A stretch of 64,000 bases of DNA, taken from the NCBI GenBank assembly GCA_964557295.1, contig CAZKZP010000004.1, positions 68,667 through 132,666 of the forward strand, read 5' to 3'. Below the pieces are notes generated by a model, which searched no databases, was not told where the DNA came from, and was given only the letters and a program-made list of their open reading frames with translations. Below, one piece after another: positions 3,059 through 21,297 of the stretch. The position numbers were made by a program, and so were the translations under genes. Source of the DNA: an uncultured Chromatiales bacterium (GTDB lineage: Bacteria > Pseudomonadota > Gammaproteobacteria > RBG-16-57-12). Positions within the stretch are counted from its first letter, which is position 1. The number at the start of each line of letters is the position of its first letter.

Positions 3059-4144
3059 CTATCTCGCCGCATGCCGGATTCGGCGCGCCAGTGATTTCAG
3101 ATCCTGAAACGTGATGGACTCGAGCTCACGATGCCGCGCCAGGAAGCGGTCCAGCTCGCGCAGCGAATACGGCGTGAGCGATTTGGGGTGGCCGATCACA
3201 TTGAAGATGCGCGGCGCGGCACCCGCGGGCAGTTGGCGGAATGCCCGTTCCAGCAAGGCGGCCTTGGCCCCGTCGATGGAGGCCACGCTCGAACTCGACA
3301 GCAGCAGCAGGCGCAGATAATAGCCGCCATCGGCCTGCATCGCCGCGCCGTCGCCGAAGGCCCGATGTGCCGCGCCGCCAAGTTTTTTCTGCACGATCAT
3401 CTTCCAGAAAAACGGCGGCATCACCGTTACAGCGCTGATCGGCACCTCGACGAACGTGCCGGCGTCATCTTCGACGAGCGGGTCCGTGGCAAAGCGCCAG
3501 GTGGACTTCTCCGGCATGCCGCTGAAGTCGAACCAACGCAGCGTATCCCGCGAGATGCCGTTTTGGTAGAGCGTGCTGTCCAGCCAGACGCCCGCCGCCT
3601 GCAAGGCCGGACCGATCCGCTCGAACGGCTGGATGCACCACCCGCCGGCGCGATAGGCAAAGACCGTATCGCCGACGTGCTCCATCAGCTCCGCCTTATA
3701 CGCAGTCACGATGCGGTTGATCTCCGCCTCGGAAAAATCCTGGAGACGATAACGCCGCGCATCGATACGCCACTTCTCGCCGTCGAACGCGCAGTCTTCC
3801 CAATGGGGATGGATGTGCAGCTGCACATCATGTCCCAGGGCTTTGAGGTCACTCAGCTGGCGGGATATCCGCGTGTACTCCCGGCCCAGTCCGGGATGGC
3901 GCGCCGCCTCGCGCTTCAAGCGCAACAGGAATCCCGCGTCGACGAACAAGGTCAGCCTCACCCCGTAGCGGTCGAGCACCGCCAGCAGCGCATCGATCGG
4001 ACGGATCAGGCAATGCTCCACCGAGCCGGTCTTCTCACCAAAAAACAGCTCGTAATCCAGCCCAAGAATCAACTTCACACTCATCAGAATTCCATCGGAA
4101 AAATCACCAGGGCAGATACTCTCACAGCCCCCGCACCCAGACAA
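3059..4144 (-). CDS. polysaccharide deacetylase-like protein (XrtA/PEP-CTERM-associated subfamily); alternative start at 4084 (MSVKL)
   Basis: 361 aa (341 aa from the internal ATG). The N-terminal LILGLDYELFFG motif and His-rich HIHPHWED resemble the PEP-CTERM-locus deacetylase family. Confidence 0.6.
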   Translation of the reverse strand: MSGCGGCESICPGDFSDGILMSVKLILGLDYELFFGEKTGSVEHCLIRPIDALLAVLDRYGVRLTLFVDAGFLLRLKREAARHPGLGREYTRISRQLSDLKALGHDVQLHIHPHWEDCAFDGEKWRIDARRYRLQDFSEAEINRIVTAYKAELMEHVGDTVFAYRAGGWCIQPFERIGPALQAAGVWLDSTLYQNGISRDTLRWFDFSGMPEKSTWRFATDPLVEDDAGTFVEVPISAVTVMPPFFWKMIVQKKLGGAAHRAFGDGAAMQADGGYYLRLLLLSSSSVASIDGAKAALLERAFRQLPAGAAPRIFNVIGHPKSLTPYSLRELDRFLARHRELESITFQDLKSLARRIRHAAR

Positions 4145-4364
4145 TCACCTCGGCCGATGCGCTGCCACAACACGTCGCCCGCCATCAAAGGCGCCGCTGG
4201 CCCGTGTGACGCCACCCACCGACAGCCTGTGATAAGACTCACAAAGCAAGAGGTTCACCCTGTTTTTCGTATAGCACCGAGGCGAAATGTGACTTGTGTC
4301 GCGCAAATTTGTACCGCGACCCACTATGGTAAGCAGCGCAATCCACTAGAGAGACACCCATATC

Positions 4365-6665
4365 ATGCTCAAGAAAATACCCATACTCATTTTCAGCGCA
4401 ACTCTGTGCGCTTGTGGTGGAGGATCGACAGGAAGTGAAAAAAATTCCGGACAGAATAGCCCCCAAGACAATGAGGAAATCGTCGCAGCCATGCAAGGCA
4501 GCGTCGGCGACGGCCCGATCCAGAACGCCGTCATCGCCATCCGCGACAAGAACGGCGCAGTGGTGCAAGCCCTCATGGGCAGCGGCACGGCCAGCTATGA
4601 AACCACGATCAACGTCAAACGAAGGCTCTATCCCCTGACGATCGAAGTCTCCGGCGGCACCGATCTCGTCACCGATACCGCCCCCGACTTCACCTTGTAT
4701 TCAGTCGCGCTCAAGCCGAGTGCATCGAGCACCTTCAACGTCAATCCGTTCACCACCTTCATCACCCGCATCGCGCAGAACATGCCGGGCGGCATTAACA
4801 CCACCAACGTACAAACCGCCACAGATACCGTATTGGCGAATCTGCACGCGGGACTGGATACCACGCTCATCTCCGACACCATTGGTCAAACTGTCGACGC
4901 CAACACGATCGCGGTGATGGTCAAGGCGAGCGAGTCCGTGGGCGAAATCGTGCGCAGAACGCGCGATGGCATTCGGGCAAAAGGCCTGGACGTCACGGGC
5001 GATGACATCGTCGATGCGCTCTCGGCCGACCTCGTCGATGGCAAGATCGATGGCCGCGGCGCTACCGGTGCCGACAACCGCATCGCCGCCGTCGCCAACC
5101 TGGTCACCGGCCAGGTTCTGCTCGAAGTGGTGCGCAACCGCCTGAACGTCAACGGCGCCGAAGCGACCGTGCGCATGGACAACGCCATTATGGCCACACA
5201 TCCCGGCAGCACTAAACTGACCGGCTCGGTGGCCATTACCGGCGAAATCATTGATCAGTCCAAACGTATCGTCGATGTCGTCAACACCATTACCCCGAGC
5301 ACTACATTGGTCGAGATCTCGAAACAGCTTGCCACACTTGCGCCCAATAGTTCCGCCAGTGACGCAGACCGGACTCTGCCAGACGCTGCCAGCGGCGCGC
5401 TCGACGGCGCCATTCAATATGCCCTGCAAGCCGATGCTACCGATCTGAAGGCGATCAATGATGTCGTGCCAGGGCCGCTCCCGACGCAAACGCCTGCGCC
5501 GACCGCAACACCCACTCCGACCCCGAGGGCCACACCAACGCCTGCGCCGAGCGCGGCACCCACGCCGACACCTGCGCCGATCATCGTGCCGGGACCTGGT
5601 CCGACTCTGACGCCCAAGCCGACAGCGACGCCCTCACCGACACCCAAGCCAACGGCGACACCCTCACCCACGCCCAAGCCGACAGCGACGCCCTCACCCA
5701 CGCCCAAGCCAACGGCGACGCCCTCACCGACGCCCAAGCCAACGGCGACGCCCACGCCTGCACCAGGCCCCACTCAAACGCCGAAGCCATCACCTACGCC
5801 CACTCCGGCGCCTCAGGCGGTAGCCCCGGTGCTCAATTCCGCAACCGTTAAAGGAACGGATATTGTACTGGCCTGGTCCCAGGGCAACCCGACACCCGAT
5901 GGTGGCTATGATCTCTTCATCGACAATACCGACACCGGCAGCAAATATCGCACGACCGCCCTATCGCTCACCCTGAGCGGCTTGGATGTATCGGTAGCGC
6001 ATTGCTTCAAGGTCGAGTCCCGGTATGTCGCGCTGAACCAATTCCTGCCCTCGAACGAGCGCTGCACCACACCGGTGGTCACTCCGCAGAATGCAGCGCC
6101 CACCCTCAGCGGCACCCCCGCTGGCAGTGTCGCGGCGGGATCATACTACCTGTTCACGCCGAAGGCATCCGACGCCAATGGCGACACCCTCACCTTCAGC
6201 GTCAGCAACAAGCCTGCTTGGGCCATGTTCGACACCGCCACCGGCAAATTGTCCGGCATCCCGAATGCAGCCAATGCCGGCACCGCCAGCAACATCGTGA
6301 TCACCGCCTCAGATGGCAAGGCCAGCACATCGCTTCCCGCCTTCGCCATCACGGTGACCACTTCAAGCACCGGCGGTGGCAGTGGCAGCGGCAGCGGCAG
6401 CGGCAGCGCCACACTGTCATGGAGCACTCCTACCACCAAGGAAGATGGCAGCCCGATGCCCATGTACGAAATCGCCGGTTATCGCGTCTATCGCGGGACG
6501 GCTCCGGACAAGATGACCGTCATATCAGACATCAAAAACAACACCACGACATCGTATACCGCCACAGCGCTCACGAGCGGGACTCATTACTTTGCCGTAA
6601 CCACATATGACGTCAACAACATCGAAAGCTCACTCTCAAGCGTCATGAGCAAGACGATTCCGTAG
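4365..6665 (+). CDS. modular surface lipoprotein with Pro/Thr-rich tandem-repeat linker, two FN3-like domains, a putative Ig (cadherin-like) domain and a (GS)n linker
   Basis: 766 aa. The N-terminal [21 protein letters not shown] shows a lipobox. A PT-rich region [10 protein letters not shown] is repeated about five times. A putative Ig-like stretch is TLSGTPAGS...[33 protein letters not shown] is followed by an FN3-like C-terminal domain ([10 protein letters not shown]...YRVYRGT...[10 protein letters not shown]). A strong terminator lies immediately downstream. Confidence 0.8.
5610..5758 (+). repeat. in-frame 30-bp tandem repeat (about 4.8 copies) encoding ([10 protein letters not shown])n
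   Basis: The unit acgcccaagccRacRgcgacRccctcaccS repeats head-to-tail. The antisense ORF 5414..5773 ([10 protein letters not shown] repeats) is its shadow. Confidence 0.85.
6372..6407 (+). repeat. hexanucleotide microsatellite (ggcagY)n encoding the (GS)n linker
   Basis: The sequence is ggcggtggcagtggcagcggcagcggcagcggcagc, in frame inside CDS 4365..6665. Confidence 0.8.
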
Positions 6666-6685
6666 AGCCTCCCTCCTTCGGCTCG

Positions 6686-6720
6686 AGAGCAGACAATGCA
6701 TAATTGTCTGCTCTTTTTTT
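6686..6720 (+). terminator. Rho-independent terminator
   Basis: A perfect 12-bp stem (agagcagacaat / attgtctgctct) with a 5-nt loop is followed by a T7 run, starting 21 nt after the stop of CDS 4365..6665. Confidence 0.8.
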
Positions 6721-7372: not shown

Positions 7373-7840
7373 ATGAGATCGAGCATCGCAAGCAACATTT
7401 TGAAACTCGTGGCACTGGGAAGCATCACCTTGGCCCTCACTGCCTGCCAGGGTGGACCCTCGGCGAGCAACGAAACCACACCGAATAACACTAACAATGT
7501 GGGCGGCACCGGCAACACTGGTGGTTCTGGATCCGGTTCAGGATCAGGCTCGGGATTGAACATCAGCAAGTCATCGGCGACGCTCAGCTGGTCAGCCCCG
7601 CTGACGGATGAAACTGGCGCCCCCATCAACCTTTATCAACTCGGTGGCTACAAGGTATACCTGGGCAGCAGCGCCGACACCATGACCCCGGTCGTGGATC
7701 TCGCAGACCCTGCCACCACGGAATACACCCTGACCGGCCTGAGCAACGGCACTTATTACATGGCAGTGACCGCCTACGACAACGACCTGATAGAAAGCGC
7801 GCTTTCCACAGTTGTTGAAATCAACGTCAACCATTCTTGA
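7373..7840 (+). CDS. small lipoprotein consisting of lipobox signal peptide, Asn/Thr/(GS)n linker and a single FN3-like domain
   Basis: 155 aa. The signal peptide MRSSIASNILKLVALGSITLALTACQGG carries a lipobox. [11 protein letters not shown] is followed by an FN3-like domain (SATLSWSAPLTDE...YKVYLGS...TYYMAVTAYD) homologous to the C-terminal domain of CDS 4365..6665. Confidence 0.75.
   Translation: MRSSIASNILKLVALGSITLALTACQGGPSASNETTPNNTNNVGGTGNTGGSGSGSGSGSGLNISKSSATLSWSAPLTDETGAPINLYQLGGYKVYLGSSADTMTPVVDLADPATTEYTLTGLSNGTYYMAVTAYDNDLIESALSTVVEINVNHS
7523..7555 (+). repeat. microsatellite encoding the (GS)n linker
   Basis: The sequence is ggttctggatccggttcaggatcaggctcggga, in frame in CDS 7373..7840. 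Confidence 0.7.
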
Positions 7841-7924: not shown

Positions 7925-9622
7925 ATGAATAAACTTACCAGCGCAACCTGGCTTCTGGGCCTGACCATGCTCGGTTCAAGCGCCGCCCATGCGTATACCC
8001 CACCCATCGGCATTCCAGCACCTTCCTTCGGCATCGATGAAACCGCCCCGGCACAGCCTGCGGCCTGGCCCAGCGGCGAAGCTGCCGGATTCTACTATGT
8101 CGACAAATCCCACCCATCAGCCACTGACACTGGCAACTCGTACGGCTATCCCAACAAGCCTCGACTGACTATTCCGAGAACCACATTTGGCCCAGGCGCT
8201 TACATTGAACTGCACGGGGGAGAATATAGTGGAAGCCTAGGCATGCTCACCTTCGATTGCCGCAAGGAAAACCCTTGCTGGCTGAGAGGTGCCAGCGCAA
8301 GTGTAATGCCGACAATTTCCGGGAACTTTACGCTGGATGCCACTTACCTGATTGTAGAGAATCTCGATTTCAATGGAGGCACAGGCGGCAGTATCGATAT
8401 AGTCAGCGATTCGACTTATGTGTCTGTGCGGCACTCAAAATTCCGCAACAGGGCTTTTGTAAGCAACACCGCCGCAATTGGCATCACACCAGCGCTTGGA
8501 AAAAAATCTCACGACATCGTAGCCTATAAAAATGAGTTCAGCGCGCTTGGTGACTATACGGCAACAGTGGATCTCGATTTTCATGCGATCAACCCGACCC
8601 TCTGGGGGCGTGACAGCACTACTGAGTTATTCAATGTGTGGGCACTTGAAAACCATTGTTACCGCCTAAGCGGCGATTGTGTTCAAGTGAATGCTGGTAA
8701 TTGGACCGACTCTTATAAATATCTGCATCATGTCTATATAGGAAAAAATGTAGGCCATGAAGGACGTCAGGGTCCATTTGGCGTCAAACAATCAAGTGAT
8801 GTAATAATTTCTCAAAACACAGCCTATGGATCGCGCCAACACGGCCCACAAGCAGGCAATGGGATTGGGTTTCAATACGGCCCCAATAATTTATGGATTA
8901 TCTTCAACGATATATCCGATTCTAACTATGGCATTCGGCAAACGGATACCTCCACCCCCTTCCCAAACAACAAGATCTATATTGTCGGAAACGTAATTCA
9001 TAACATTCATCCTGAAGCTAGCATCACCTACAACCCCAACGATGCCTGGAGACCTGGGGTCGCCATATCCTTGTGGCATGGCAACCTGCAACGCTTCATC
9101 GTGGACAACACCATTTATGATGTTCATGGCGGCATTACAGCCATCTATGATGGCCCATTGACCATTTCAAACAACATTATTTCTAATATTCACGATCAGG
9201 ACTATCACTTATACATTGCCCATCCAGCTCGACCAAATCCAACTGCAGATGCCTCTATCGACAGCGGCCTGTTCTACGACCCCGAGCTCGGCAACGCCAA
9301 AATTCGCTGGGAAGGTGGAAATGGTGATTTGCATAACACCCTGACGTCCTTTAAAGCTGCGTATGGGTTATGCGCTGACTGTTCAGTAGGCAATCCCGAC
9401 TTTCTAGATCCAGCGAATGGAAAGTTTGATCTGCAAAAAACATCCGCGGCTATTAATAAAGGCAAAGATCAATCAGTCTACGACACATTTTTCAGTCTAT
9501 ATGGCATAAACATCGAAAAGGACTTCCACGGCCAATCTCGCAAGATTGGATTAAAACAGGACTTCGGTGCATTTGAGGTAGGCCTAGCGCCTACTGCACC
9601 AAGTAATTTTACAGTAAAATAA
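7925..9622 (+). CDS. secreted right-handed parallel beta-helix protein (pectate-lyase-fold polysaccharide lyase/hydrolase candidate), paralog 1
   Basis: 565 aa with a Sec signal peptide MNKLTSATWLLGLTMLGSSAAHA. It contains multiple PbH1-like repeats (NLDFNGGTGGSIDI, IISQNTAYG, GNGIGFQYGPNNLWIIFN, IVGNVIHNIH, IVDNTIYDVHGGI, ISNNIISNIHD). It ends with an FN3-like first strand, APTAPSNFTVK. GC is lower than in the locus core. Confidence 0.8.
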   Translation: MNKLTSATWLLGLTMLGSSAAHAYTPPIGIPAPSFGIDETAPAQPAAWPSGEAAGFYYVDKSHPSATDTGNSYGYPNKPRLTIPRTTFGPGAYIELHGGEYSGSLGMLTFDCRKENPCWLRGASASVMPTISGNFTLDATYLIVENLDFNGGTGGSIDIVSDSTYVSVRHSKFRNRAFVSNTAAIGITPALGKKSHDIVAYKNEFSALGDYTATVDLDFHAINPTLWGRDSTTELFNVWALENHCYRLSGDCVQVNAGNWTDSYKYLHHVYIGKNVGHEGRQGPFGVKQSSDVIISQNTAYGSRQHGPQAGNGIGFQYGPNNLWIIFNDISDSNYGIRQTDTSTPFPNNKIYIVGNVIHNIHPEASITYNPNDAWRPGVAISLWHGNLQRFIVDNTIYDVHGGITAIYDGPLTISNNIISNIHDQDYHLYIAHPARPNPTADASIDSGLFYDPELGNAKIRWEGGNGDLHNTLTSFKAAYGLCADCSVGNPDFLDPANGKFDLQKTSAAINKGKDQSVYDTFFSLYGINIEKDFHGQSRKIGLKQDFGAFEVGLAPTAPSNFTVK

Positions 9623-9741: not shown

Positions 9742-11427
9742 ATGACAAAACATAACACAGCAACCTGGCTTCTGGGCCTGACCATGCTCGGTTCAAGCGC
9801 CGCTCATGCGTATACCCCGCCCATCGGCATTCCAGCGCCCGCGTTCGGCATCGATGAAACCGCCCCGGCACAGCCTGCGGCCTGGCCCAGCGGCGAAAAG
9901 GCCGGGTTCTACTACGTCGACAAGTCCCATCCTTCGGCGACAGACACCGGCAACACATACGGCTATCCCAACAAGCCCCGGTTGACAATTCCGAACACCA
10001 CCTTTGGGCCTGGGACTTACGTTGAGCTGCACGGGGGGACGTATTCCTCAAACATGAGCCTGAACTTCAACTGCACTCAGGCAGCCCCCTGCTGGGTCAG
10101 AGGCGCCAGCGCCACAACCATGCCGACAATCACCGCATCGATGAGCATTAATTCCAAATATTTGATTGTGGAGAACCTCGATTTCAACGGCGGGGTTGGT
10201 GGTGCGTTGAACGTGACGGGTACGTCACAATATGTATCCATCAGGCACTCCAAGATCCGCAACAGGGCGCATCCCACTGGTGCTACCGCCGCCATCGGCC
10301 TCATTCCCGCCCCTGGCCAAAAAGTGTCAGATGTCGTGATCCATAAGGTTGAGTTCAGCGATCTCGGCGACTGGTTACGCCTGGACGATCTGGATTTTCA
10401 CGGTGTCAATCCGAGCCTCTGGGGACGTGACAGCACCGCCGAGCTTTCCAATGTGTGGATTCTTGATAGCCAATGCTTCCATGTGAGCGGCAACTGCGTG
10501 CAGGTCAATGCCGGCAACTGGGCCGATAGCTGGAAATATCTCCACCACGTCTATATTGGTCGGAACGTCTCCCATGCCGGCCGACAGGCAGGTTTCTGGT
10601 CCAAGCAGGCACGGGATGTCATCATCTCGCAGAATACCGTCTATGATAACCGAGCGCACGGCCCCCAACCCGGAGACGGCATCGGCTTCCAATATGGTCC
10701 GGACAACCTATGGATCATCTTCAATGAGATTTACAACTGCAATTACGGAATCCGGCAGTCGGATACTGGCACCAGCGCCAGCACTCACAAGGCCTATATT
10801 CTCGGAAATCTGATCTACAACATTCATCCAGAAGATGTCGCCGCCTACAAGCCGAATGACGGATGGCGGCAAGGACTCGGGATCACCTTGTGGCATGGCA
10901 ATATGCAGCGTCACATCGTCGACAACACCATCTATGATGTACATGGTGGCATTAACACGATCTATGACGGCCCAGTGTCCATGTCAGGGAACATCATTAC
11001 AAACATTCACGATGCAGATTATCACATCAGCAGCTCGCACTCCGCGCGCAGCGGAAACGCATCAATCGACAGTGGGCTGTTCTATGACCCGGAACTGGCC
11101 TCAGCCCGTATCAACTGGAACTGGGCAGATTACACCAGCCTGTCAGCCTTCAAAAGTGGTACGGGGAATATACAATGCAGCGGCTGCGAAGTCGGCAATC
11201 CTGCATTCGTCGACCCGACAACCGGAAAGTTTGACCTGCAAAAAACCTCCTCGGCCATTAACAAAGGGAAGCTGCATTCAGCGTATGACACTTTCTTTAC
11301 GCTCTATGGCATAGACATCAAAAAGGACTTCGCAGGCAGGACTCGCGTACTGGGATTGAAGCCGGACTTCGGAGCCTTTGAGGTGGGTGTAGCCCCTACT
11401 GCGCCGAGCAACTTTACAGTCAAATAG
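9742..11427 (+). CDS. secreted right-handed parallel beta-helix protein, paralog 2 (tandem duplicate of 7925..9622)
   Basis: 561 aa, colinear with paralog 1. The first roughly 170 nt are about 90% identical at DNA level and diverge thereafter. It has the same signal peptide, the same PbH1 repeats and the same C-terminal APTAPSNFTVK. Confidence 0.8.
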   Translation: MTKHNTATWLLGLTMLGSSAAHAYTPPIGIPAPAFGIDETAPAQPAAWPSGEKAGFYYVDKSHPSATDTGNTYGYPNKPRLTIPNTTFGPGTYVELHGGTYSSNMSLNFNCTQAAPCWVRGASATTMPTITASMSINSKYLIVENLDFNGGVGGALNVTGTSQYVSIRHSKIRNRAHPTGATAAIGLIPAPGQKVSDVVIHKVEFSDLGDWLRLDDLDFHGVNPSLWGRDSTAELSNVWILDSQCFHVSGNCVQVNAGNWADSWKYLHHVYIGRNVSHAGRQAGFWSKQARDVIISQNTVYDNRAHGPQPGDGIGFQYGPDNLWIIFNEIYNCNYGIRQSDTGTSASTHKAYILGNLIYNIHPEDVAAYKPNDGWRQGLGITLWHGNMQRHIVDNTIYDVHGGINTIYDGPVSMSGNIITNIHDADYHISSSHSARSGNASIDSGLFYDPELASARINWNWADYTSLSAFKSGTGNIQCSGCEVGNPAFVDPTTGKFDLQKTSSAINKGKLHSAYDTFFTLYGIDIKKDFAGRTRVLGLKPDFGAFEVGVAPTAPSNFTVK

Positions 11428-11780: not shown

Positions 11781-13463
11781 ATGGAAAACACCACCTTTAA
11801 AATACTTAGAAAGTCATCCCATTATCTCATATCGGCTGGATTTCTTCTTCTCTACCTAGCCCTGCCTTCGGCCAATCATAGCTACGCAGATGATAGCCTT
11901 CGGTGGGCTTATGGTATCACGCAAGAAGGCGGCATTATCAACTCTCACCATCTGATTATTAACGCCTTAAGAGAAGCATTTATTCTATTTAACAGTCTAT
12001 TTGATAGCGTATCACCATCAAGCTTCTTAACTATCTACTCAAGTCTCTGGGGTGGCACCGGATTGCTCCTTCTAAGCTTCTTACTAAAAGAAGTTGGATT
12101 GCATAACTCCCGTATAGTCGGCGTCACTCTCTGCGGAATATCTGTTGGTTACTGGTCATACTCTATCGTGGGAGATGTTTATGTGCCCGCAACAGCAAGC
12201 TTGGTGGGAGGCACACTATTCTTTCTGAAGGGATTGAAGCGCAACCCTAGTGCAACTAAACAAGCATACGCCCTTCTAAGCGTCTTGTTTTTTCTCACTG
12301 CAATTATGCATCATCAGGCTTTTTTTGTTTTTGTAATAGGACTTGGATTTATCGGGCTTTTATACAGCAACACACTTAGCAAACAAGGCCTGACTTATGG
12401 CCTCATAATATCAGTAGCGGTCGGGCTTGCGTGCATTGCAATTTATGTTTCTGCTCACAAATTCTCTACCCCTCCGCATGAGGAGTCTCCCTCCACGCTC
12501 CAATTCATGTCCGGCTACGCCTCGAGCTTTACAGCTTACCCAGACATGAAAGACTTATCGCCAGCAACACTTATCAAAGGCGCTGGCGGATTTGCTCGCT
12601 CGCTTGTAAGCACAAACATCTTATTCAGCAATCATTCCTTTGTGGAGAACATTCAAAACAAATTCCCCTATCGTCACATGCTAAGCCAAGTCTATTTAGC
12701 AGAGCAAATGACGTCTTTGCAAATTACAGTCGCCTGGATAGGCCTGTTTATAACCGTATTGATTGCAGCACCGCTCACCATATTCGCACTCTGGTGCTGC
12801 GCAAAAAACCCATCTGCTGCAAAAAAAGTGCTTATATTTTCCGTTGTACCTCAGATGTTATTTTTTTTGTGGTGGGAATCAATATCTGACGAATTTTGGA
12901 TTTGGATACTTCCCTTCTGGGCAATGACAATTTGTTTCGCCGTTGAACGGCTCAAGAAGAACGGCACCCTTATTGCTATTGTATTTTCGGCAGCACTTTT
13001 AGCGGCCAATCTTTGCGCCTCGATACTACCTTACAGCAACTCCAGCTCAGATATTGACCAACGCAACAGCGAATACATCAATACCGTTAAACCTGGCGAT
13101 CTGCTGATATCATTTGATGAAATAATTACAGCACACTTGATAAAACTCTCAGAAAGCAAAATTGGCTTCGAATATATCAATCTATTTGGACCGGCAGAAA
13201 AAGGGCGTGACTTAGAAATAGACAAAATAATCATGCGCGCGGAAGCAGCCATACGGCGCGGTAACTCAATCCATCTTGGCCCCTACTTGATAGATCCCCC
13301 ACGATCATATATGGCACTAGTAGAGCTGCAAACGAAAGACTTCTCCCAACAAAGAGATTTATTGATACAGAAACTTATGCTGCTGAGTCGGGACAGCTTA
13401 AAATTTCACCACCCAAATATAACAATAGATGGGGCATTCTCGAATAGATTGGCGCCCGAGTGA
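11781..13463 (+). CDS. polytopic integral membrane protein of unknown function (possible GT-C-type glycosyltransferase or polymerase accessory protein)
   Basis: 560 aa with about 12-13 hydrophobic segments and a roughly 140-aa hydrophilic C-terminal domain. It is AT-rich (low-GC island). Its stop overlaps the GTG start of the next gene (GTGA). Confidence 0.65.
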   Translation: MENTTFKILRKSSHYLISAGFLLLYLALPSANHSYADDSLRWAYGITQEGGIINSHHLIINALREAFILFNSLFDSVSPSSFLTIYSSLWGGTGLLLLSFLLKEVGLHNSRIVGVTLCGISVGYWSYSIVGDVYVPATASLVGGTLFFLKGLKRNPSATKQAYALLSVLFFLTAIMHHQAFFVFVIGLGFIGLLYSNTLSKQGLTYGLIISVAVGLACIAIYVSAHKFSTPPHEESPSTLQFMSGYASSFTAYPDMKDLSPATLIKGAGGFARSLVSTNILFSNHSFVENIQNKFPYRHMLSQVYLAEQMTSLQITVAWIGLFITVLIAAPLTIFALWCCAKNPSAAKKVLIFSVVPQMLFFLWWESISDEFWIWILPFWAMTICFAVERLKKNGTLIAIVFSAALLAANLCASILPYSNSSSDIDQRNSEYINTVKPGDLLISFDEIITAHLIKLSESKIGFEYINLFGPAEKGRDLEIDKIIMRAEAAIRRGNSIHLGPYLIDPPRSYMALVELQTKDFSQQRDLLIQKLMLLSRDSLKFHHPNITIDGAFSNRLAPE

Positions 13464-14950
13464 AAATCGCTGCTTTAACTTTTTTTATAACACTTTTCTC
13501 TCTTTATGCCTGGAAAGATTGGTATAAATCGCTTTGCGCACTAATCTTTCTTATGGCTTTTCTCGAGCGCCCGGACATTCCAAAGACCATTCTTGATATT
13601 CCGGGCTTTAATCCCTGGAATTTCCTTCTTGCAGTCGTCTTACTGGCATGGCTAGCATCGAAACGGCGAGAAGAGCTGAAATGGGATATGCCTCCCAAAA
13701 TCACATTTCTACTACTTTTTTATTTTTTTGCTATCACTGTTGCAGTTGCCCGCATGCTTAGCGACATTAGCGGCATTACCGAATTTCGATTGGCCGCAGG
13801 ACAGGAAGCTCCAACAAAGTCGGGCTTGATAATTGATTATTATGTCAATTGCATTAAATATACAATTCCAGGGTTATTGCTTTTTATCGGCTGCAACAGT
13901 CGCAGCCGACTAAACTGGGCGCTGGCCGCACTGGCGGGCATGTATTTATTTCTTGCACTCCAAGTCATCAAATGGATGCCCTTAGGGTTGCTCACCGATG
14001 GGGTGGAATTGAGCTATCGGGCATTACGTGTGCTAGACAGAGAAATAGGCTATCACCGTGTCGATTTGTCAATGATCCTTGGAGGGGGGGCTTGCGCCAT
14101 TTTTGCCGCCAGAATATTCGCAAAAAACCAAATTCAATACTTCATCATAATATCTGTTAGCGCTATTACAGCACTCAGCCAGGTGCTTACGGGCGGCCGA
14201 ATGGGTTATGTCACTACTGCGATTATTGGATTAATATTCGCTGCCTTTCGTTGGCGAAAGCTGTTTCTGTTACTACCAATTATGGTCGTCCTGATAACGA
14301 TCTATATGCCCTCGGTTGTAGACCGCTTTACACAAGGTTTCGGAGGCGAATTTGCCACTGAGGAAGCACCACCAACTGTCGTTGCTGAAACGCTCAACGA
14401 GGGCGATGCGGGGCTGTATGCCATGACATCAGGACGCAACTTTGCGTGGCCATTTGTACTAGATAAGATAGCAGAAGCGCCACTTTTCGGTTACGGTTGC
14501 TTAGCGATGCAGAACCTCGGCATTAGCACACACCTATTGCTCAATTATGGCGAGCTTTTTCCGCACCCCCACAACGCTTATCTAGAGCTGATATTTGATA
14601 CGGGATTGTTTGGAGCAATCCCCGTTTTTATCTTATTTGCGCTACTGACAAAATTCAGTTTTTCACTCTTCCGCGACTCAAGCAGCACTATATTCATCGC
14701 CGTAGGCGGTGGAGGACTCGCAATCATCTTGGCCCAACTTATCGCCAGCCTTGGCGCGCAATCTTTCTATCCGCGCGAAGGCACTGTTGCCCTTTGGTGT
14801 GCAATCGGACTGGTGCTGCGCGTTTACATTGAGAGAGCAAAAGCCATCACCATGCGACCCAGCAACTCCGCGCCCATCGATGATCTAATGTGGGGACGTA
14901 AGTTAGCTGAAAAAAATACGTCTATGCGGTTTAACAAACGGTCGCAATAG
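13460..14950 (+). CDS. O-antigen ligase/Wzy-like polysaccharide polymerase family membrane protein
   Basis: 496 aa and multi-TM. It carries a Wzy_C-type motif, YGCLAMQNLGISTHLLLNYGELFPHPHNAYLELIFDTGLFG. The GTG start is overlapped by the upstream stop. It lies in the low-GC region. Confidence 0.75.
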   Translation: MKIAALTFFITLFSLYAWKDWYKSLCALIFLMAFLERPDIPKTILDIPGFNPWNFLLAVVLLAWLASKRREELKWDMPPKITFLLLFYFFAITVAVARMLSDISGITEFRLAAGQEAPTKSGLIIDYYVNCIKYTIPGLLLFIGCNSRSRLNWALAALAGMYLFLALQVIKWMPLGLLTDGVELSYRALRVLDREIGYHRVDLSMILGGGACAIFAARIFAKNQIQYFIIISVSAITALSQVLTGGRMGYVTTAIIGLIFAAFRWRKLFLLLPIMVVLITIYMPSVVDRFTQGFGGEFATEEAPPTVVAETLNEGDAGLYAMTSGRNFAWPFVLDKIAEAPLFGYGCLAMQNLGISTHLLLNYGELFPHPHNAYLELIFDTGLFGAIPVFILFALLTKFSFSLFRDSSSTIFIAVGGGGLAIILAQLIASLGAQSFYPREGTVALWCAIGLVLRVYIERAKAITMRPSNSAPIDDLMWGRKLAEKNTSMRFNKRSQ

Positions 14951-15067: not shown

Positions 15068-16207
15068 TTAGTTACTTACGCAGAGTTCGCCAAATGTTTT
15101 TTCGAATTTTGGCATGGCAACGTCTAACGAATGGTTCCTCTGAAAATATTCGATGCAATTATGCGACACTGACTCATGCTTTTTGGGCGAAGATAAAATG
15201 CCGGTTATCCATTCAATTACTTCATCTGGGGTTCGTGCAAAACCGCCCAAGCCATTTTTCTCGATCACAGAATCAGGGTCCACCGTTGACACCACGGGCA
15301 GTCCGACGCTCCATGCTTCCAAAAACACGTTTGGAAACCCTTCAAAGGTGGAGGTGCAACAAAGCACGGCCGCTCTCCGGTAGAATTTTGCTAAATTACC
15401 GTGGTCAATCCGTCCATGTATGACGACATTGTCCATCTCACGTGCGCGGCTGAGCAGTCCGCTTGAATATTTAGTGTCCATGTTCGCCGCGCCAACAATA
15501 TCAAATTTTACGTGCTTGAGCTTTTCTGCAACATCCAGCATCCATTCAAGCCTTTTCTCAGCGCTCAATCTTCCCACCCACAGCACATGGTGCTGCTCTG
15601 CCATTTCATTATTCGTCAGCGTTGCACCTCCAATTCCCGCCGACGGCATGCTGATAACTGTCGAATGTTTGCCGAAATTTCTATTCAACAACTGCTGTTG
15701 CTTGTTAGTTTGCACAATCACCACATCGGTTCTTTTGAGGCCATAGCGATATAGCACCCGCTCGCGCAGCGGACGAAGGCTTGGCAGGGACGATTCGCAA
15801 TCTGGATCACTGGCAACAGAGTACACAACTTTTTTTCCATGTCGATGCGCCCAATTGACAACCTGCCCCAAACCCATGTCTCCGCAGTTATAATAATAGA
15901 TGTCAGCATCGGCCTTTTTCATGGCTTTTATCAAACTTGTCCAGCGCGGATATATAAATCGAACCACTGGAATGCCGTCATCGCGATCACACATTTTGTA
16001 CACGCGAACGCCATCCACCAGCTCACCATCTGGCTGCCCTTCATCCCATGTGATCATGCTTACCTTGTACCCGTGACTGGCGAGCCACTTAGCCATGAGG
16101 GACTGCTGTCGCTCAATCCCGCCCGCATGCCTTTTGTTATTTCCAACCAATGCGCCATACGCATGGTGCGCAACAAAGCATATTGATGGCTTGCTCAATC
16201 CACACAC
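15068..16207 (-). CDS. glycosyltransferase family 4 (GT-B, retaining)
   Basis: 379 aa with the GT4 signature EGFPNVFLEAWSVGLPVVST. Confidence 0.85.
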   Translation of the reverse strand: MCGLSKPSICFVAHHAYGALVGNNKRHAGGIERQQSLMAKWLASHGYKVSMITWDEGQPDGELVDGVRVYKMCDRDDGIPVVRFIYPRWTSLIKAMKKADADIYYYNCGDMGLGQVVNWAHRHGKKVVYSVASDPDCESSLPSLRPLRERVLYRYGLKRTDVVIVQTNKQQQLLNRNFGKHSTVISMPSAGIGGATLTNNEMAEQHHVLWVGRLSAEKRLEWMLDVAEKLKHVKFDIVGAANMDTKYSSGLLSRAREMDNVVIHGRIDHGNLAKFYRRAAVLCCTSTFEGFPNVFLEAWSVGLPVVSTVDPDSVIEKNGLGGFARTPDEVIEWITGILSSPKKHESVSHNCIEYFQRNHSLDVAMPKFEKTFGELCVSN

Positions 16208-16295
16208 TCCGATAACTTAATCAATCTCTAAACCATCCCGCACCCACGGAACAATGGCAGCGAATAAGCGCGATTGCTTCAGATCATGCCAGTAG

Positions 16296-17453
16296 TTATT
16301 GCGCTTTTGAATCCATGATCGCTCGATACATGGCGATAGTTCTCTGCGCCACTGACTCGGGATGATACTTGGCAGCCGCATCCTGCCGCCCATTTTCCGC
16401 GATCTTATTCCGCATGCCCGCATCGGTCAGCAGCTCGATCAATCTTTGCGCCAATCGGTCATGGTCGTCAGGGCCGACAAGAAAGCCTGTTCTCCCTTCC
16501 TCGATCATGTAGGGCATACCGCACACATTGGACGAAATGACCGGCACGCCAGCCGCCATGGCCTCTGCGATTGCCATCGGCGCATTCTCTTGATACGAGG
16601 GCAACACAAACACACTGGCTTCACTCAACTCCTTGCGCATCTGCTGTTGACTCAGCCTGCCCAGCAGGTGCACTCGGGTCTCAAGGCCATTCTGAACGAT
16701 GATATTTTTTATCTCACGATAATATTCAACCTCTCCGCCTGGCTCGCCTGCTATGTGCAGCTGCGCATCGACTCCAGCCGCAATCACTTTTATAAAAGCC
16801 TTGATTAGCCCAAGCGCATTTTTTCGTGGATTCAACCACCCGGCAAAGAACACTCTTCCCGCCTGCTCATTGCGCTCGATGGCGAAAAAGTCGCGCGAAA
16901 TTGCATTTTCTATTTCATAGACTTTTGCAGATGTCAGCGGCTCAATCTCTTTTCTTACGTAGGGATTAATGGATACGATGTGATGTTGTCGGGACAATCC
17001 AAATGACTCCGCCCGCCGCCATAACAACGAGCGTAGCCGCCAGAACGGCTTTCGCTCGGCGCCCAGATTGAGGCTGTCGAATCCGTGCACTGTGAATACC
17101 GACGGCACCCTTAGCTTATGCACGCCCAATCCATAGGTTTCCTGAAAATGCACAATATCGGGATTCAATGAGGACACATACTGCTTAAGCAGCCGCTCCC
17201 CTGGCCCGAAGAAAATGTCAAACATCATCGGCCAACGAGTTTTCGGTAATCTGTGGACAGTAATATTCTCGACTTTCTCTACTGAGATAGCATGACGACC
17301 CTTCTCAAAGGTCACCACATGCAACTCGTGTTCACCCGATGAAAGCAGCCCACGCAATAATCCAATGGTCGCGGTTTCGACACCACCACGTGGATTATCC
17401 ATGCTGGCAGGCATGCGGCTAAAAATCACTACTCTCATCGTTTTCCTTAGCAA
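16296..17453 (-). CDS. glycosyltransferase family 4
   Basis: 385 aa (an alternative start lies 5 codons in). It carries the GT4 signature ENAPMAIAEAMAAGVPVISSNVCG. Confidence 0.85.
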   Translation of the reverse strand: MLRKTMRVVIFSRMPASMDNPRGGVETATIGLLRGLLSSGEHELHVVTFEKGRHAISVEKVENITVHRLPKTRWPMMFDIFFGPGERLLKQYVSSLNPDIVHFQETYGLGVHKLRVPSVFTVHGFDSLNLGAERKPFWRLRSLLWRRAESFGLSRQHHIVSINPYVRKEIEPLTSAKVYEIENAISRDFFAIERNEQAGRVFFAGWLNPRKNALGLIKAFIKVIAAGVDAQLHIAGEPGGEVEYYREIKNIIVQNGLETRVHLLGRLSQQQMRKELSEASVFVLPSYQENAPMAIAEAMAAGVPVISSNVCGMPYMIEEGRTGFLVGPDDHDRLAQRLIELLTDAGMRNKIAENGRQDAAAKYHPESVAQRTIAMYRAIMDSKAQ

Positions 17454-17587
17454 AGTTCCTGTTCGGATTTCAGCGCCTCAGGGGGCTCTGTTGAACTTCT
17501 AGCGTCACTCCGGCGCATGTTGGGCTCTTGGGCGCCTGCGGTGGCAACCCCTGTTTTTCTCACGCCCCAAGAATTGGCCGGCTCACG

Positions 17588-19516: not shown

Positions 19517-19582
19517 TCTAGTCTTTCACTCCAAATCAGTTCATCAATATTCAACTGCCGCAAGAAACAGGGCCGCCGACAC

Positions 19583-20827: not shown

Positions 20828-20925
20828 TGTATGTTCATCGTATGCAATTGCAACTTCATCGGCGACGACATGTCGGTCGTGTTTTTTTATTAACCCGGCG
20901 ATTAAATATATCTGCCACGTATCTT

Positions 20926-21062
20926 AAAAGCGTCCCTTCTCCCTCCGGGAGAAGGATAGGATGAGGGAGTAAATTAATGTGTTAATCCCCCTCACCCTAG
21001 CCCTCTACCCTAAAGGGCATAAATCCCGGAGGGAGAGGGAACAGTACACCAGATCCATTTTG
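20926..21062. repeat. interspersed repeat family 1 copy (hairpin ccttctccc-tccg-ggagaagg, core ggatgagggagtaaattNatg...ccccctcaccctagccctct, second hairpin)
   Basis: An 85-bp core is shared at about 90% with 26996-27095. A partial third copy (ttctccctgagggagaa) lies at 21090-21140. Confidence 0.6.
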
Positions 21063-21174
21063 TCGCCGGGTTAATAATTTAATCATCGGCGCCAAAATAG
21101 GTCTGCTTTTATTCCTTCTCCCTGAGGGAGAATGAACGTCTTGAATATGCGACAGAGGTGTTACTAACTTGGCG

Positions 21175-21262
21175 GCTAAAGATACCTGCTGCTGTAGGAG
21201 CAAGCTTCAGCTTGCGATCAGCCACCGCTGCGATGATCGCCATCTAAAGATGGCTCCTACAT
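21175..21262. repeat. REP-like repeat family 2 copy B (ctgtaggagcaagcttcagcttgcgatc...gatcgccatctaaagatggctcctac)
   Basis: The motif gccatctaaagatggctcctac is shared with 46298-46340. Motifs are also shared with 540-625 and 46800-46895. Confidence 0.6.
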
Positions 21263-21297
21263 CAGATGTAATTGATCGCCGAGTTAATACTAACCAA

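What the first reader, a model, noticed from the sequence alone, without database searches (positions are those of the whole stretch)
7373..7840. Minimal lipoprotein that is essentially lipobox + flexible linker + one FN3 domain
The 155-aa product has a lipobox signal peptide, an Asn/Thr/(GS)n low-complexity linker and a single FN3-like domain clearly homologous to the C-terminal domain of the 766-aa lipoprotein (SATLSWSAPLTDE...YKVYLGS...YYMAVTAYD against [10 protein letters not shown]...YRVYRGT...HYFAVTTYD). A free-standing membrane-tethered FN3 module next to EPS enzymes suggests a surface adaptor or polysaccharide-binding anchor.
Basis: seen in the sequence. Interest (0 to 1): 0.55.

Follow-up and report, generated by a model that had tools for sequence, protein, structure and literature searches.

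The report
Lipoprotein with strand-deficient FN3 docking module
The small gene is real and encodes a lipid-anchored protein with a flexible tether and a single FN3 domain that lacks its first strand; it belongs to a large, undescribed family found in exosortase-type slime (EPS) gene clusters, and it probably docks the secreted sugar-cutting enzymes encoded right after it, whose tails look exactly like the missing strand.

Summary
ORF 7373..7840 (+) encodes 155 aa made of three parts. The first is a signal peptide with a lipobox that passes the PROSITE rule (Cys25). The second is a disordered N/T/G/S linker. The third is one FN3 domain, supported by Pfam, AlphaFold2 and Foldseek. That domain is 51% identical (E=5e-25) to the C-terminal domain of the 766-aa lipoprotein.

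The architecture is not unique. At least 486 metagenome relatives share it, and the FN3 is always C-terminal and never preceded by a canonical A strand. These genes lie in XrtA/PEP-CTERM exopolysaccharide loci, often directly beside XrtA or the export operon.

The new point concerns the two beta-helix glycanases encoded immediately downstream. Both end in a free tail, APTAPSNFTVK-COOH, which matches the FN3 A-strand consensus. The same tail (TPPxAP[ST][GN]LxVx-COOH) ends about 20-40% of listed homologs in two unrelated secreted families. Other members of those families carry known anchors at that position (T9SS CTD, TM anchors, dockerin-like, full FN3).

In four independent lineages a tail-bearing gene sits directly beside such an FN3 lipoprotein.

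Best reading (about 0.45): the lipoprotein is a membrane tether that captures tagged enzymes, possibly by strand complementation. This has not been shown physically.

The parts
7373..7840 (+). Gene for the 155-aa FN3 lipoprotein (stop codon included)
   Evidence: ORF list and translation. An exact copy and 73-78% orthologs exist in public data.
7373..7447 (+). Lipoprotein signal peptide with lipobox L-T-A-C (Cys25 = codon 7445-7447)
   Evidence: Full PROSITE PS51257 rule met. The Cys is invariant in 28 homologs.
7448..7570 (+). Disordered Asn/Thr/Gly/Ser tether (residues 26-66), including (GS)5 and the clade-specific 'GLNISK'
   Evidence: AF2 pLDDT <50 over residues 20-64. Composition read from the translation.
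7571..7837 (+). FN3 core, strands B-G only (residues 67-155); the A strand is absent
   Evidence: AF2 strands 67-72, 90-98, 105-110, 117-123, 126-136 and 148-152. Pfam fn3 27.9 bits, aligned from profile position 10. Foldseek hits are all FN3.
7925..9622 (+). BH1: secreted right-handed beta-helix glycanase/lyase-like protein (565 aa), 84 bp downstream of the FN3 gene
   Evidence: Pfam Beta_helix and NCBIfam choice-of-anchor Q, near cutoff. AF2 pLDDT 94. Foldseek finds GH136 lacto-N-biosidase and PL6 lyases.
9578..9619 (+). BH1 C-terminal tail VGLAPTAPSNFTVK-COOH (FN3 A-strand-like tag)
   Evidence: Translation. AF2 pLDDT 62-67 with no secondary structure, so the tail is not packed on the helix. 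Appending it to the FN3 core extends the Pfam fn3 match to profile position 2 and adds 6.5 to 9 bits.
9742..11427 (+). BH2: tandem paralog of BH1 (561 aa, 68% identity) with the same signal peptide and tail
11383..11424 (+). BH2 C-terminal tail VGVAPTAPSNFTVK-COOH
   Evidence: Translation. BH1 and BH2 are the only genes in the window with such a tail.
4365..6665 (+). 766-aa lipoprotein: unknown N-domain, Pro/Thr linker, complete FN3-like domain, He_PIG Ig domain, GS linker and a terminal FN3 that lacks the A strand
6402..6662 (+). Terminal FN3 of the 766-aa lipoprotein, lacking the A strand and paralogous to the 155-aa protein's domain
   Evidence: BLASTP 51% identity, E=5e-25. Family HMM 88 bits. 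The GS linker runs straight into 'ATLSW'.
6685..6715 (+). Intrinsic-terminator-like hairpin (13-bp stem plus T run) that separates the 766-aa gene from the FN3-BH1-BH2 unit
   Evidence: No + strand terminator was found between 7840 and 7925.
11781..14950 (+). Context: 560-aa polytopic membrane protein and Wzy_C-family polymerase/ligase, syntenic with the FN3-BH module in relatives
15068..43641 (-). Context: the XrtA/PEP-CTERM EPS locus. It holds GT4s, amidotransferase, sulfotransferase, WecG, deacetylase, priming transferase, heparinase-like protein, TIGR03016 OMP, Tyr kinase, chain-length determinant, export protein, PrsT, XrtA 38633-40180, PrsR and PrsK.

Best explanation
The 155-aa product is an outer-membrane-type lipoprotein (Gln at +2). 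It consists of a lipid anchor, a flexible tether of about 40 residues, and a C-terminal FN3 domain that has only strands B-G.

It belongs to a large, uncurated family of lipoproteins ending in an FN3 without an A strand. These are accessory genes of XrtA/PEP-CTERM exopolysaccharide systems.

In this locus it most likely acts as a membrane tether (receptor) for BH1 and BH2, the two secreted beta-helix glycanases encoded immediately downstream and probably co-transcribed. Each enzyme ends in a free Pro-rich tail, APTAPSNFTVK-COOH, which is an FN3 A strand in sequence. The proposal is that this tail docks onto the lipoprotein's FN3, most simply by filling the missing A-strand position next to strand B (donor-strand complementation). 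That would hold the EPS-trimming enzymes on a leash at the envelope, near the export machinery.

Shown here:
- the anatomy of the protein;
- the existence of the family and its link to XrtA loci;
- the absence of an A strand in models and profiles;
- the free tail on the enzymes;
- recurrence of the tail in unrelated families at the position where other members carry an anchor;
- repeated gene adjacency between tail-bearing genes and these lipoproteins.

Inferred only:
- physical binding between the two;
- the binding geometry;
- the cellular side (periplasm or cell surface);
- the enzymes' substrate.
For: (1) Anatomy. Lipobox, linker and FN3 core are confirmed.

(2) No A strand. AF2 gives six strands with the linker disordered. 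Pfam and PDB profile matches begin at the B strand. In 102 family ORFs the FN3 is never tandem, ends within 8 aa of the stop in 101 cases, and is always preceded by a low-complexity linker or the last He_PIG strand.

(3) BH tail. It is unstructured and unpacked in a model with overall pLDDT 94. In BH homologs that carry a full C-terminal FN3, the same position holds that domain's A strand, for example P0157 '...GAYE...APPAPTGLTAAVSGTTITFNW'. After the conserved GAFE motif, 79 of 114 homologs have only a 13-45 aa Pro-rich extension that ends in a strand-like hydrophobic dyad.

(4) Anchor slot. Other BH homologs carry He_PIG plus a TM/basic anchor, dockerin-like repeats or full FN3s at that position. 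NCBI names the family choice-of-anchor Q.

(5) Second family. An unrelated family of secreted proteins of about 380 aa shows the same tail consensus, TTPP[AS][AP]P[TS][GN]Lx[VIL]x(1-2)-COOH, in 44 of 120 members. Other members have a T9SS CTD or TM anchors there. The background rate of the strict pattern is 13 of 1376 ORFs, 0 of 45 in the lipoproteins themselves on the relaxed pattern, and 4 of 150 in giant FN3 proteins on the relaxed pattern.

(6) Adjacency in independent lineages and with different partner families:
- window and L001: FN3 then BH, gaps of 84 and 81 bp;
- L004: FN3 then the 380-aa protein ending in the tail, gap 32 bp;
- L042: a distant beta-helix ORF '...APSPPTELTIQ*' then FN3, gap about 41 bp;
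- L088: a divergent FN3-lipoprotein/BH pair outside any EPS locus;
- looser linkage in L089, L007 and L010.

(7) In-silico complementation with Pfam fn3. The core alone scores 25.8 bits over profile positions 14-72. Tail+GSG+core scores 34.9 bits over positions 2-71. Scrambled tails score 27.7 and 30.1 bits without reaching the A strand. The FN3 of the 766-aa protein rises from 21.9 to 28.2 bits.
Against: No physical or structural evidence of a complex exists.

The lack of an A strand is a property of the whole long-BC-loop FN3 subtype. It is also seen in N-terminal and tandem copies separated by linkers (P0414, P0351, P0401). These domains may therefore be self-sufficient six-stranded variants whose extended BC loop covers the A-strand position. 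I could not inspect coordinates to check this.

Co-localisation is incomplete. Four of seven BH-tail lineages have no such lipoprotein within +-10 kb (L087, L091, L092, L093). Most soil-metagenome FN3 lipoproteins sit next to XrtA or small PEP-CTERM genes, with no tail-bearing neighbour in the available flank.

Stoichiometry is not 1:1. The window has 2 FN3 lipoproteins and 2 BH proteins, while L001 has 3 and 1.

The window clade has a conserved 'G[LI]NISK' three residues before strand B. This could be a weak cis A strand.

The Pfam score gains are modest.
Confidence: 0.45

Rival explanations
1. Polysaccharide-binding anchor. The tethered FN3 binds the nascent or exported EPS directly. It would retain the polymer at the cell surface or guide it to the export channel, independently of the beta-helix enzymes.
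For: The gene is located in EPS loci in the window and in relatives. FN3 modules are common in carbohydrate-active enzymes, for example chitinase A1 FN3 and beta-1,2-glucanase among the Foldseek hits.
Against: No carbohydrate-binding family matched in Pfam or NCBIfam. The closest structures are generic protein-interaction FN3s. This reading does not explain the A-strand-like tails on neighbours from three unrelated families. It also does not explain the isolated FN3/BH pair outside any EPS locus.
Confidence: 0.15
2. Accessory lipoprotein of the exosortase (XrtA) machinery itself. It would act with XrtA or its PEP-CTERM substrates, for example as a periplasmic handling or acceptor factor. On this reading the link to the beta-helix enzymes in this window is only shared locus membership.
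For: In soil-metagenome relatives the gene lies immediately upstream of XrtA (L018, L022, L028, L069, L070). In others it is divergent from the export/chain-length/Tyr-kinase operon (L030, L044, L049, L060). Small PEP-CTERM genes are often adjacent.
Against: In the window the gene is 31 kb from XrtA and 84 bp from BH1. No PEP-CTERM ORF was found in the window. L088 has the FN3/BH pair with no XrtA genes nearby. This reading is not exclusive of the tether model.
Confidence: 0.2
3. Self-sufficient six-stranded FN3 'spacer' lipoprotein with no specific ligand for the tails. The enzymes' tails would be vestiges of lost C-terminal FN3 domains, and adjacency would reflect only co-regulation within polysaccharide loci.
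For: The lack of an A strand is general in this FN3 subtype, including tandem copies. AF2 folds the core confidently without an A strand. Some BH homologs do have full FN3s, which fits a history of domain loss.
Against: Vestiges should decay at variable points. Instead, hundreds of diverged sequences in two unrelated families end 1-3 residues after the same strand motif. Alternative anchors occupy the same slot. Partner families differ between loci while the tail and the FN3 lipoprotein remain constant.
Confidence: 0.15

Closest known systems
Donor-strand complementation in chaperone-usher pili (Fim/Pap subunits)
   Same: An Ig-like beta-sandwich lacks one edge strand. A short extension from another polypeptide is proposed to supply it, giving a very stable non-covalent joint.
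   Different: In pili the missing strand is the C-terminal G strand, and the donor is an N-terminal extension of the next pilin. Here the missing strand is the N-terminal A strand of an FN3, the donor is the C-terminal tail of an enzyme, and the acceptor is a lipoprotein. No chaperone or usher is present. Binding here is inferred, not shown.
Cohesin-dockerin anchoring and other interchangeable C-terminal anchors ('choice-of-anchor' logic; T9SS CTD, PEP-CTERM, GlyGly-CTERM)
   Same: A short C-terminal module on diverse secreted enzymes occupies the slot where homologs carry other anchors. A dedicated receptor domain on a tethered protein would hold the enzyme at the cell envelope.
   Different: The tag is only about 10-12 residues with no TM segment, so no sortase-like cleavage is implied. 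The receptor is an FN3, not a cohesin. Some BH homologs do carry dockerin-like repeats instead.
LpoA/LpoB-type outer-membrane lipoproteins (lipid anchor, long disordered linker, small docking domain)
   Same: The overall architecture is the same, as is the idea of reaching a periplasmic partner on a flexible leash (from established knowledge of LpoB).
   Different: The fold and partner are unrelated (PBP activation versus EPS glycanase tethering). There is no sequence similarity.
Periplasmic or envelope-associated EPS-trimming enzymes (AlgL, PelA, PslG, BcsZ, VexL, RbmB)
   Same: BH1 and BH2 are secreted beta-helix glycanase/lyase-like proteins inside an EPS locus. VexL and RbmB appear among the structural neighbours.
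   Different: Those enzymes are soluble, anchored by a TM segment, or bound to scaffold proteins such as PelB. None is known to be held through a C-terminal FN3-strand tag.
SpyTag/SpyCatcher and other engineered split Ig-like domains
   Same: A beta-sandwich is split into a large fragment and a single-strand peptide that reassociate.
   Different: Those systems are engineered from CnaB2 and locked by an isopeptide bond. Here the split would be natural, involve an FN3, and be non-covalent.

Membership tests
Bacterial lipoproteins (PROSITE PS51257 / Lgt-LspA substrates) | Positively charged n-region, uncharged h-region, lipobox [LVI][ASTVI][GAS]C, with the Cys at positions 15-35 | tested here: met
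   R2; LVALGSITLALTA; L-T-A-C25. The full rule passes. The Cys is invariant in 28 homologs. 42 of 46 family members carry the pattern.
Bacterial lipoproteins (PROSITE PS51257 / Lgt-LspA substrates) | Actual diacylglyceryl modification and signal peptidase II cleavage | not testable with these tools
   Needs globomycin sensitivity, palmitate labelling or mass spectrometry.
Fibronectin type III domain (Pfam PF00041) | Profile score at or above the gathering threshold | tested here: met
   27.9 bits against 25, residues 63-137.
Fibronectin type III domain (Pfam PF00041) | Beta-sandwich fold superposable on solved FN3 domains | tested here: met
   AF2 core pLDDT about 90. The top 50 Foldseek PDB hits are almost all FN3 domains or FN3-containing proteins, with probability 1.00.
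Fibronectin type III domain (Pfam PF00041) | Seven strands A-G, with strand A pairing with strand B | tested here: not met
   Only B, C, C', E, F and G are predicted. Profile alignments start at positions 10-14. The same holds in 102 family ORFs.
XrtA/PEP-CTERM exopolysaccharide system (accessory component) | Encoded within or next to a locus with exosortase A, PrsK/PrsR/PrsT and the EPS export genes | tested here: met
   The window locus spans 15-43.6 kb. Relatives: 5 of 5 looked-up contigs and 11 of 18 metagenome loci of at least 8 kb, several directly adjacent to XrtA.
XrtA/PEP-CTERM exopolysaccharide system (accessory component) | A curated family model for this component, or strict phylogenetic co-occurrence with XrtA | tested here: inconclusive
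   No NCBIfam or Pfam model matches other than generic fn3. L088 shows the gene without XrtA nearby. Genome-wide profiling was not possible.
PEP-CTERM exosortase substrates | C-terminal PEP motif, TM helix and Arg cluster | tested here: not met
   The protein ends ...EINVNHS after the G strand. A regex scan found no PEP-CTERM ORF in the window.
Donor-strand-complemented (split) Ig-like domains | Acceptor domain with a missing edge strand | tested here: met
   Caveat: the extended BC loop could cover the A-strand position, and coordinates could not be inspected.
Donor-strand-complemented (split) Ig-like domains | Partner carries a free terminal extension that matches the missing strand | tested here: met
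   The BH1/BH2 tail APTAPSNFTVK is unstructured in AF2. It matches fn3 profile positions 2-9 and adds 6.5 to 9 bits, against 2-4 bits for scrambled tails. It is positionally equivalent to the A strand of fused homologs.
Donor-strand-complemented (split) Ig-like domains | Physical complex with the donated strand paired to the acceptor sheet | not testable with these tools
This needs AF-Multimer/AF3, pull-down or a solved structure.
Carbohydrate-binding modules | Match to a CBM family or a recognisable aromatic binding platform | tested here: not met
   No CBM family matched in Pfam or NCBIfam. A binding surface was not analysed.

The most novel reading that the evidence does not exclude
The tail TPPxAP[ST][GN]Lx[VI]x-COOH is an undescribed C-terminal sorting or anchoring tag, in effect a detached FN3 A strand. 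It is used by several unrelated families of secreted enzymes in environmental Gram-negative bacteria.

Lipoproteins that end in an FN3 lacking the A strand, such as this 155-aa protein and the 766-aa one, would be its receptors. The two parts would reconstitute a complete FN3 by strand complementation.

This would be a natural split-domain, non-covalent cell-envelope anchoring system associated with exosortase/EPS loci. Proteins carrying several such strand-deficient FN3 domains could act as multivalent scaffolds.
Probability: 0.4. Interest if true: 0.85.

Novelty: new variant of a known kind. Interest (0 to 1): 0.66.

Why it matters
If correct, this would add a new way for Gram-negative bacteria to fix secreted enzymes to the envelope. 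The mechanism would be a tag of about 12 residues that completes a receptor's FN3 fold. It would be analogous in logic to cohesin-dockerin and in mechanism to pilus donor-strand complementation.

It would assign a function to three groups that are all currently 'hypothetical':
- a family of thousands of hypothetical lipoproteins in exosortase (XrtA/PEP-CTERM) EPS loci, systems whose biochemistry is still largely unknown;
- the conserved tails on at least two enzyme families;
- the 'choice-of-anchor Q' beta-helix proteins.

It would also provide a natural, small split-FN3 pair that could be useful for protein engineering.

Independently of the mechanism, the comparative result stands. The family is widespread, it ends in an FN3 lacking the A strand, and it is tied to XrtA loci. 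That is a usable annotation improvement.

Tried and rejected

(2) The genome-contig scan with a single BH protein returned only the already known ortholog contig. No named-organism survey was therefore possible.

(3) The first metagenome scan with the 28-sequence alignment failed because no conserved stretch was found. It was repeated with a closer 11-sequence alignment.

(4) I looked for a sigma-54 promoter upstream of the gene, since PrsR is an enhancer-binding protein. No match lay near 6666-7372, and the window as a whole had fewer matches than chance. No sigma-70-like promoter was found by the simple scan either.

(5) Rfam found nothing in the window.

(6) Plasmid collection searches for BH1 and for an FN3 lipoprotein gave no match. 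The afdb50 fold library was unavailable.

(7) Literature searches found nothing describing split FN3, strand complementation with lipoproteins, FN3 in PEP-CTERM systems, or choice-of-anchor in this context.

(8) I considered and rejected that the BH tail is part of the enzyme's own fold (AF2: unpacked, low confidence). I rejected that it precedes an FN3 hidden by a frameshift (only 120 bp of intergenic DNA before BH2). I rejected that it is an OMP beta-signal, because it ends in K/N/R/Q rather than an aromatic residue.

(9) I considered that the Ser/Thr/Asn-rich linker could be a glycosylation or EPS-attachment site for the nearby Wzy_C-family protein. This cannot be tested here. Wzy_C is more simply the EPS polymerase.

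(10) The Fisher tests on tail frequency are descriptive only, because homologs are not independent.
Full report
**1. Observation**

The ORF 7373..7840 (+) exists as described. Its 155-aa product starts MRSSIASNILKLVALGSITLALTAC. This satisfies every clause of the PROSITE lipoprotein rule: a basic residue in the first 7, six uncharged residues, L-T-A-C, and Cys at position 25. The Cys is invariant in an alignment of 28 small homologs.

Residues 26-64 are an Asn/Thr/Gly/Ser tract that includes (GS)5. AlphaFold2 leaves it disordered, with pLDDT <50.

Residues 67-155 form a confident beta-sandwich with pLDDT about 90. Pfam fn3 scores 27.9 bits against a gathering cutoff of 25. Every top Foldseek hit in the PDB is an FN3 domain.

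BLASTP against the 766-aa ORF 4365..6665 gives 41/80 identities, E=5e-25, to its last 85 residues. That protein also has a rule-passing lipobox, with Cys17.

**2. A refinement: the FN3 is incomplete**

AF2 predicts six strands: B 67-72, C 90-98, C' 105-110, E 117-123, F 126-136 and G 148-152. No A strand is predicted. Pfam aligns the protein only from profile position 10, or position 14 for the bare core. A PDB profile search matches solved FN3s only from the B strand onward.

An HMM of the domain was run over all fetched loci and found 102 ORFs with this FN3 subtype. In those ORFs:
- the domain is never tandem;
- it ends within 8 residues of the stop codon in 101 of 102;
- it is always preceded by a low-complexity linker or by the last strand of a He_PIG Ig domain;
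- it is never preceded by the canonical 'PxxPxnLxV' A strand.

**3. The architecture is a family, not a curiosity**

A protein search returned 45 relatives. Most are 110-190 aa proteins built as lipobox, Gly/Ser linker and one FN3. The rest are 210-260 aa proteins with He_PIG plus FN3.

The 80 loci kept are nearly all such lipoproteins.

A profile search of 1.84 billion representatives gave 18,049 hits at E<=1e-10, although that figure includes giant multi-FN3 proteins.

No curated NCBIfam model covers the family. I found no paper describing it, and the founding PEP-CTERM paper does not mention it.

**4. Context**

The window holds a complete XrtA/PEP-CTERM exopolysaccharide locus on the minus strand between 15 and 43.6 kb. 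It contains:
- exosortase A (38633-40180), PrsK, PrsR and PrsT;
- the chain-length determinant, Tyr autokinase, export protein and the TIGR03016 outer-membrane protein;
- the priming transferase, GT4s, amidotransferase, WecG, 2-epimerase, deacetylase, a sulfotransferase and a heparinase II/III-like protein.

The FN3 gene lies at the distal end of this locus. It sits in a plus-strand block in the order: 766-aa lipoprotein, terminator, FN3 lipoprotein, BH1, BH2, a 560-aa membrane protein, Wzy_C.

Relatives are also found in such loci:
- All five looked-up contigs are EPS loci.
- 11 of 18 metagenome loci of at least 8 kb carry XrtA-system markers.
- In soil clades the gene is immediately upstream of XrtA (L018, L022, L028, L069, L070).
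- In others it is divergent from the export/chain-length/kinase operon (L030, L044, L049, L060).
- Small PEP-CTERM genes are often beside it.

**5. The neighbours' tails**

BH1 (7925..9622) and BH2 (9742..11427) are 68% identical secreted proteins. AF2 models BH1 as a right-handed beta-helix with pLDDT 94. Its nearest structures are GH136 lacto-N-biosidases and PL6 lyases, with VexL, RbmB and AlgG further down the list. They are therefore glycan-cleaving or glycan-modifying enzymes, of the kind usual in EPS loci.

Both end in ...GAFEVG[LV]APTAPSNFTVK-COOH. The last 15 or so residues are unstructured and not packed against the helix, with pLDDT 62-67.

The sequence P-T-A-P-S-N-F-T-V is the Pfam fn3 A-strand consensus. 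I tested this by appending the tail to the FN3 core and scoring against Pfam fn3:

| Construct | Score (bits) | Profile positions matched |
|---|---|---|
| FN3 core alone | 25.8 | 14-72 |
| Tail + GSG + core | 34.9 | 2-71 |
| Scrambled tail 1 + core | 27.7 | 13-71 |
| Scrambled tail 2 + core | 30.1 | 11-71 |
| FN3 core of the 766-aa protein alone | 21.9 | 15-66 |
| Tail + GSG + that core | 28.2 | 2-65 |

**6. The tail is a family-level feature in an 'anchor slot'**

Of 114 classifiable BH homologs, 79 carry only a 13-45 residue Pro-rich extension after the conserved GAFE motif. These extensions end in a strand-like hydrophobic dyad, for example APAAPTELTVR, PPAAPTGLRIVY, APSAPNNLRTIR and G8-AQVPSAPSGLTIN. 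Thirteen homologs have no extension and 22 have extra domains.

The extra domains are He_PIG plus a Gly-rich/TM/basic anchor, dockerin-like repeats, or complete FN3 domains. The A strand of those complete FN3 domains occupies exactly the position of the tail, as in P0157. NCBI labels the family 'choice-of-anchor Q'.

A second, unrelated family behaves the same way. These are secreted proteins of about 380 aa, found because one is encoded 32 bp after an FN3 lipoprotein in locus L004. In this family 44 of 120 members end in the strict motif, for example DTTPPSAPTGLSVI, APAAPTNLTVQ and PDPPTNLRIIN. Other members carry a T9SS C-terminal domain or TM anchors at the same position.

The position-specific consensus is the same in both families: TTPP[AS][AP]P[TS][GN]Lx[VIL], followed by 1-2 residues and the stop.

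Background rates for comparison:
- strict motif: 13 of 1376 ORFs, most of them spurious frames;
- relaxed motif: 6 of 270 neighbouring genes, 0 of 45 FN3 lipoproteins and 4 of 150 giant FN3 proteins.

In the window only BH1 and BH2 carry the tail.

**7. Gene linkage between tail and lipoprotein**

Immediate adjacency is seen in the following lineages:
- window: FN3 then BH1, gap 84 bp, with no intervening plus-strand terminator;
- L001, the orthologous MAG: gap 81 bp;
- L004: FN3 then the 380-aa tail protein;
- L042: a distantly beta-helix-like ORF ending APSPPTELTIQ, then FN3, gap about 41 bp;
- L088: a 117-aa FN3 lipoprotein lacking the A strand, divergent from a BH homolog ending PSPPTNLRAR. 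This pair sits among unrelated housekeeping genes, so here it travels without an EPS locus.

Looser linkage is seen in:
- L089, with a He_PIG-FN3 lipoprotein 9 kb from a tail-bearing BH;
- L007 and L010, with TAT-signal proteins ending ...PDAPALSVS and ...PQPPTLTVS, 3-6 kb away.

The partner families differ from locus to locus. What stays constant is the tail and the lipoprotein.

Against this, four tail-bearing BH loci (L087, L091, L092, L093) have no such lipoprotein within +-10 kb. Most soil-clade lipoproteins also have no tail-bearing neighbour in the flank available.

**8. Mechanism proposed**

The lipoprotein has Gln at +2 and no Asp, so by the E. coli Lol rule (established knowledge) it would default to the outer membrane. 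On that basis I propose it is a tether built as lipid anchor, leash of about 40 residues, and FN3 receptor.

The secreted enzymes carry a detached A strand on a Pro-rich stalk. Docking of this strand against strand B would reconstitute a seven-stranded FN3 and hold the enzymes at the envelope, near the EPS export apparatus. The 766-aa lipoprotein would be a second, larger receptor.

The steps shown here are the anatomy, the family, the context, the tail statistics and the adjacency. The steps inferred are binding, geometry, compartment and substrate.

**9. Caveats and rivals**

The lack of an A strand is a property of the whole long-BC-loop FN3 subtype ('WxAPTxNxDGxxLxDLxGYxIYYG'). It appears in N-terminal and linker-separated tandem copies too (P0414, P0351, P0401). 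Related tandem arrays (P0373, P0439) and canonical FN3s (P0423) do have A strands. The extended BC loop might therefore cover the A position and make the domain self-sufficient. I could not inspect coordinates to check.

The window clade also conserves 'G[LI]NISK' just before strand B, which could be a weak cis A strand.

The rivals are:
No CBM evidence supports it, and it does not explain the tails;
- a role with XrtA or PEP-CTERM proteins, independent of BH. Adjacency in soil clades supports it, and it is not exclusive of the tether model;
- a plain spacer lipoprotein with vestigial enzyme tails. The precise and recurrent truncation point in two families, and the interchangeable anchors, argue against it.

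**10. Comparison with known systems, and novelty**

In mechanism the proposal resembles donor-strand complementation of chaperone-usher pilins, but a different strand is missing, the donor is at the other terminus, and the purpose differs. In logic it resembles cohesin-dockerin or other interchangeable C-terminal anchors. In architecture it resembles LpoB-type tethered lipoproteins.

The protein is a member of the lipoprotein and FN3 classes, failing only the seven-strand criterion. It is not a PEP-CTERM substrate.

I rate it a new variant of a known kind. The gene itself is an ordinary-looking hypothetical protein. The family-level pattern it leads to is undescribed as far as I could find, and it is directly testable.

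My confidence in the tether/strand-capture model is about 0.45. My confidence that the lipoprotein is a conserved accessory of XrtA-type EPS loci is high.

Noticed in passing
window 7925-9622 and 9742-11427: Two tandem paralogous beta-helix genes (68% identity) have near-identical signal peptides (…LLGLTMLGSSAAHA|YTPP) and identical C-terminal tails. The orthologous MAG locus L001 has only one copy, so this is a recent duplication.
   Followed up: partly
window 8000-16000: GC content drops to 0.44-0.51, against about 0.60 in the flanks. The drop covers BH1/BH2, the 560-aa membrane protein, Wzy_C and a GT4. This looks like the variable, possibly horizontally exchanged, serotype-like part of the EPS locus.
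   Followed up: no
window 1-64000: No ORF with a PEP-CTERM sorting signal was found by regex anywhere in the window, although XrtA, PrsK, PrsR and PrsT are all present. Relatives' loci often have small PEP-CTERM genes next to the FN3 lipoprotein. The substrates must be encoded elsewhere in this genome.
   Followed up: partly
window 4365-6665: The 766-aa lipoprotein has an N-terminal region of about 330 aa with no family match. It is followed by a Pro/Thr linker with five '[10 protein letters not shown]' repeats, a complete FN3-like domain with its own A strand ('[18 protein letters not shown]'), a He_PIG domain, and then the FN3 that lacks an A strand. L001 carries two such large lipoproteins.
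   Followed up: partly
window 22906-23868 and 28819-30852; L004, L091, L093: The window has a sulfotransferase and a heparinase II/III-like protein inside the EPS locus. Homologous loci have APS kinase and several sulfotransferases. This suggests a sulfated, amino-sugar-containing EPS, with UDP-GlcNAc 2-epimerase and a WecG-type transferase also present.
   Followed up: no
L004 8453-9595 and proteins P0170-P0289: This is a family of secreted proteins of about 380 aa with no Pfam or NCBIfam match. Its members end variously in the FN3-A-strand-like tail, a T9SS C-terminal domain, or TM/basic anchors. It is a second 'choice-of-anchor' family.
   Followed up: partly
window 6666-7372: A non-coding gap of about 700 bp separates the 766-aa gene from the FN3 gene. 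It has a strong terminator-like hairpin at 6685-6715. No promoter-like site was found by the simple sigma-70 or sigma-54 scans, and there was no Rfam match.
   Followed up: partly
window 3059-4438: Two long ORFs overlap on opposite strands: 3131..4438 (+), 435 aa, and 3059..4144 (-), 361 aa. The plus-strand ORF has no family match and the minus-strand ORF was not scanned. The plus-strand ORF also overlaps the start of the 766-aa gene by 74 bp. It is unclear which, if either, is a real gene.
   Followed up: no
window 11781-13463; L089 1072-2658: A polytopic membrane protein of about 550 aa is syntenic with the FN3/BH/Wzy_C block. Its counterpart in L089 has a weak PMT_2 (GT-C-like) hit and lies directly after a He_PIG-FN3 lipoprotein. 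It may be a periplasmic-face glycosyltransferase.
   Followed up: no
protein P0356 (311 aa, from the representative search): One record appears to hold two FN3 units that lack an A strand. The first is followed by a Gly-Cys/TM/basic C-terminal anchor and the second is preceded by a lipobox. This could be a gene fusion or a missed stop codon, and it hints at further anchor variants in the family.
   Followed up: no
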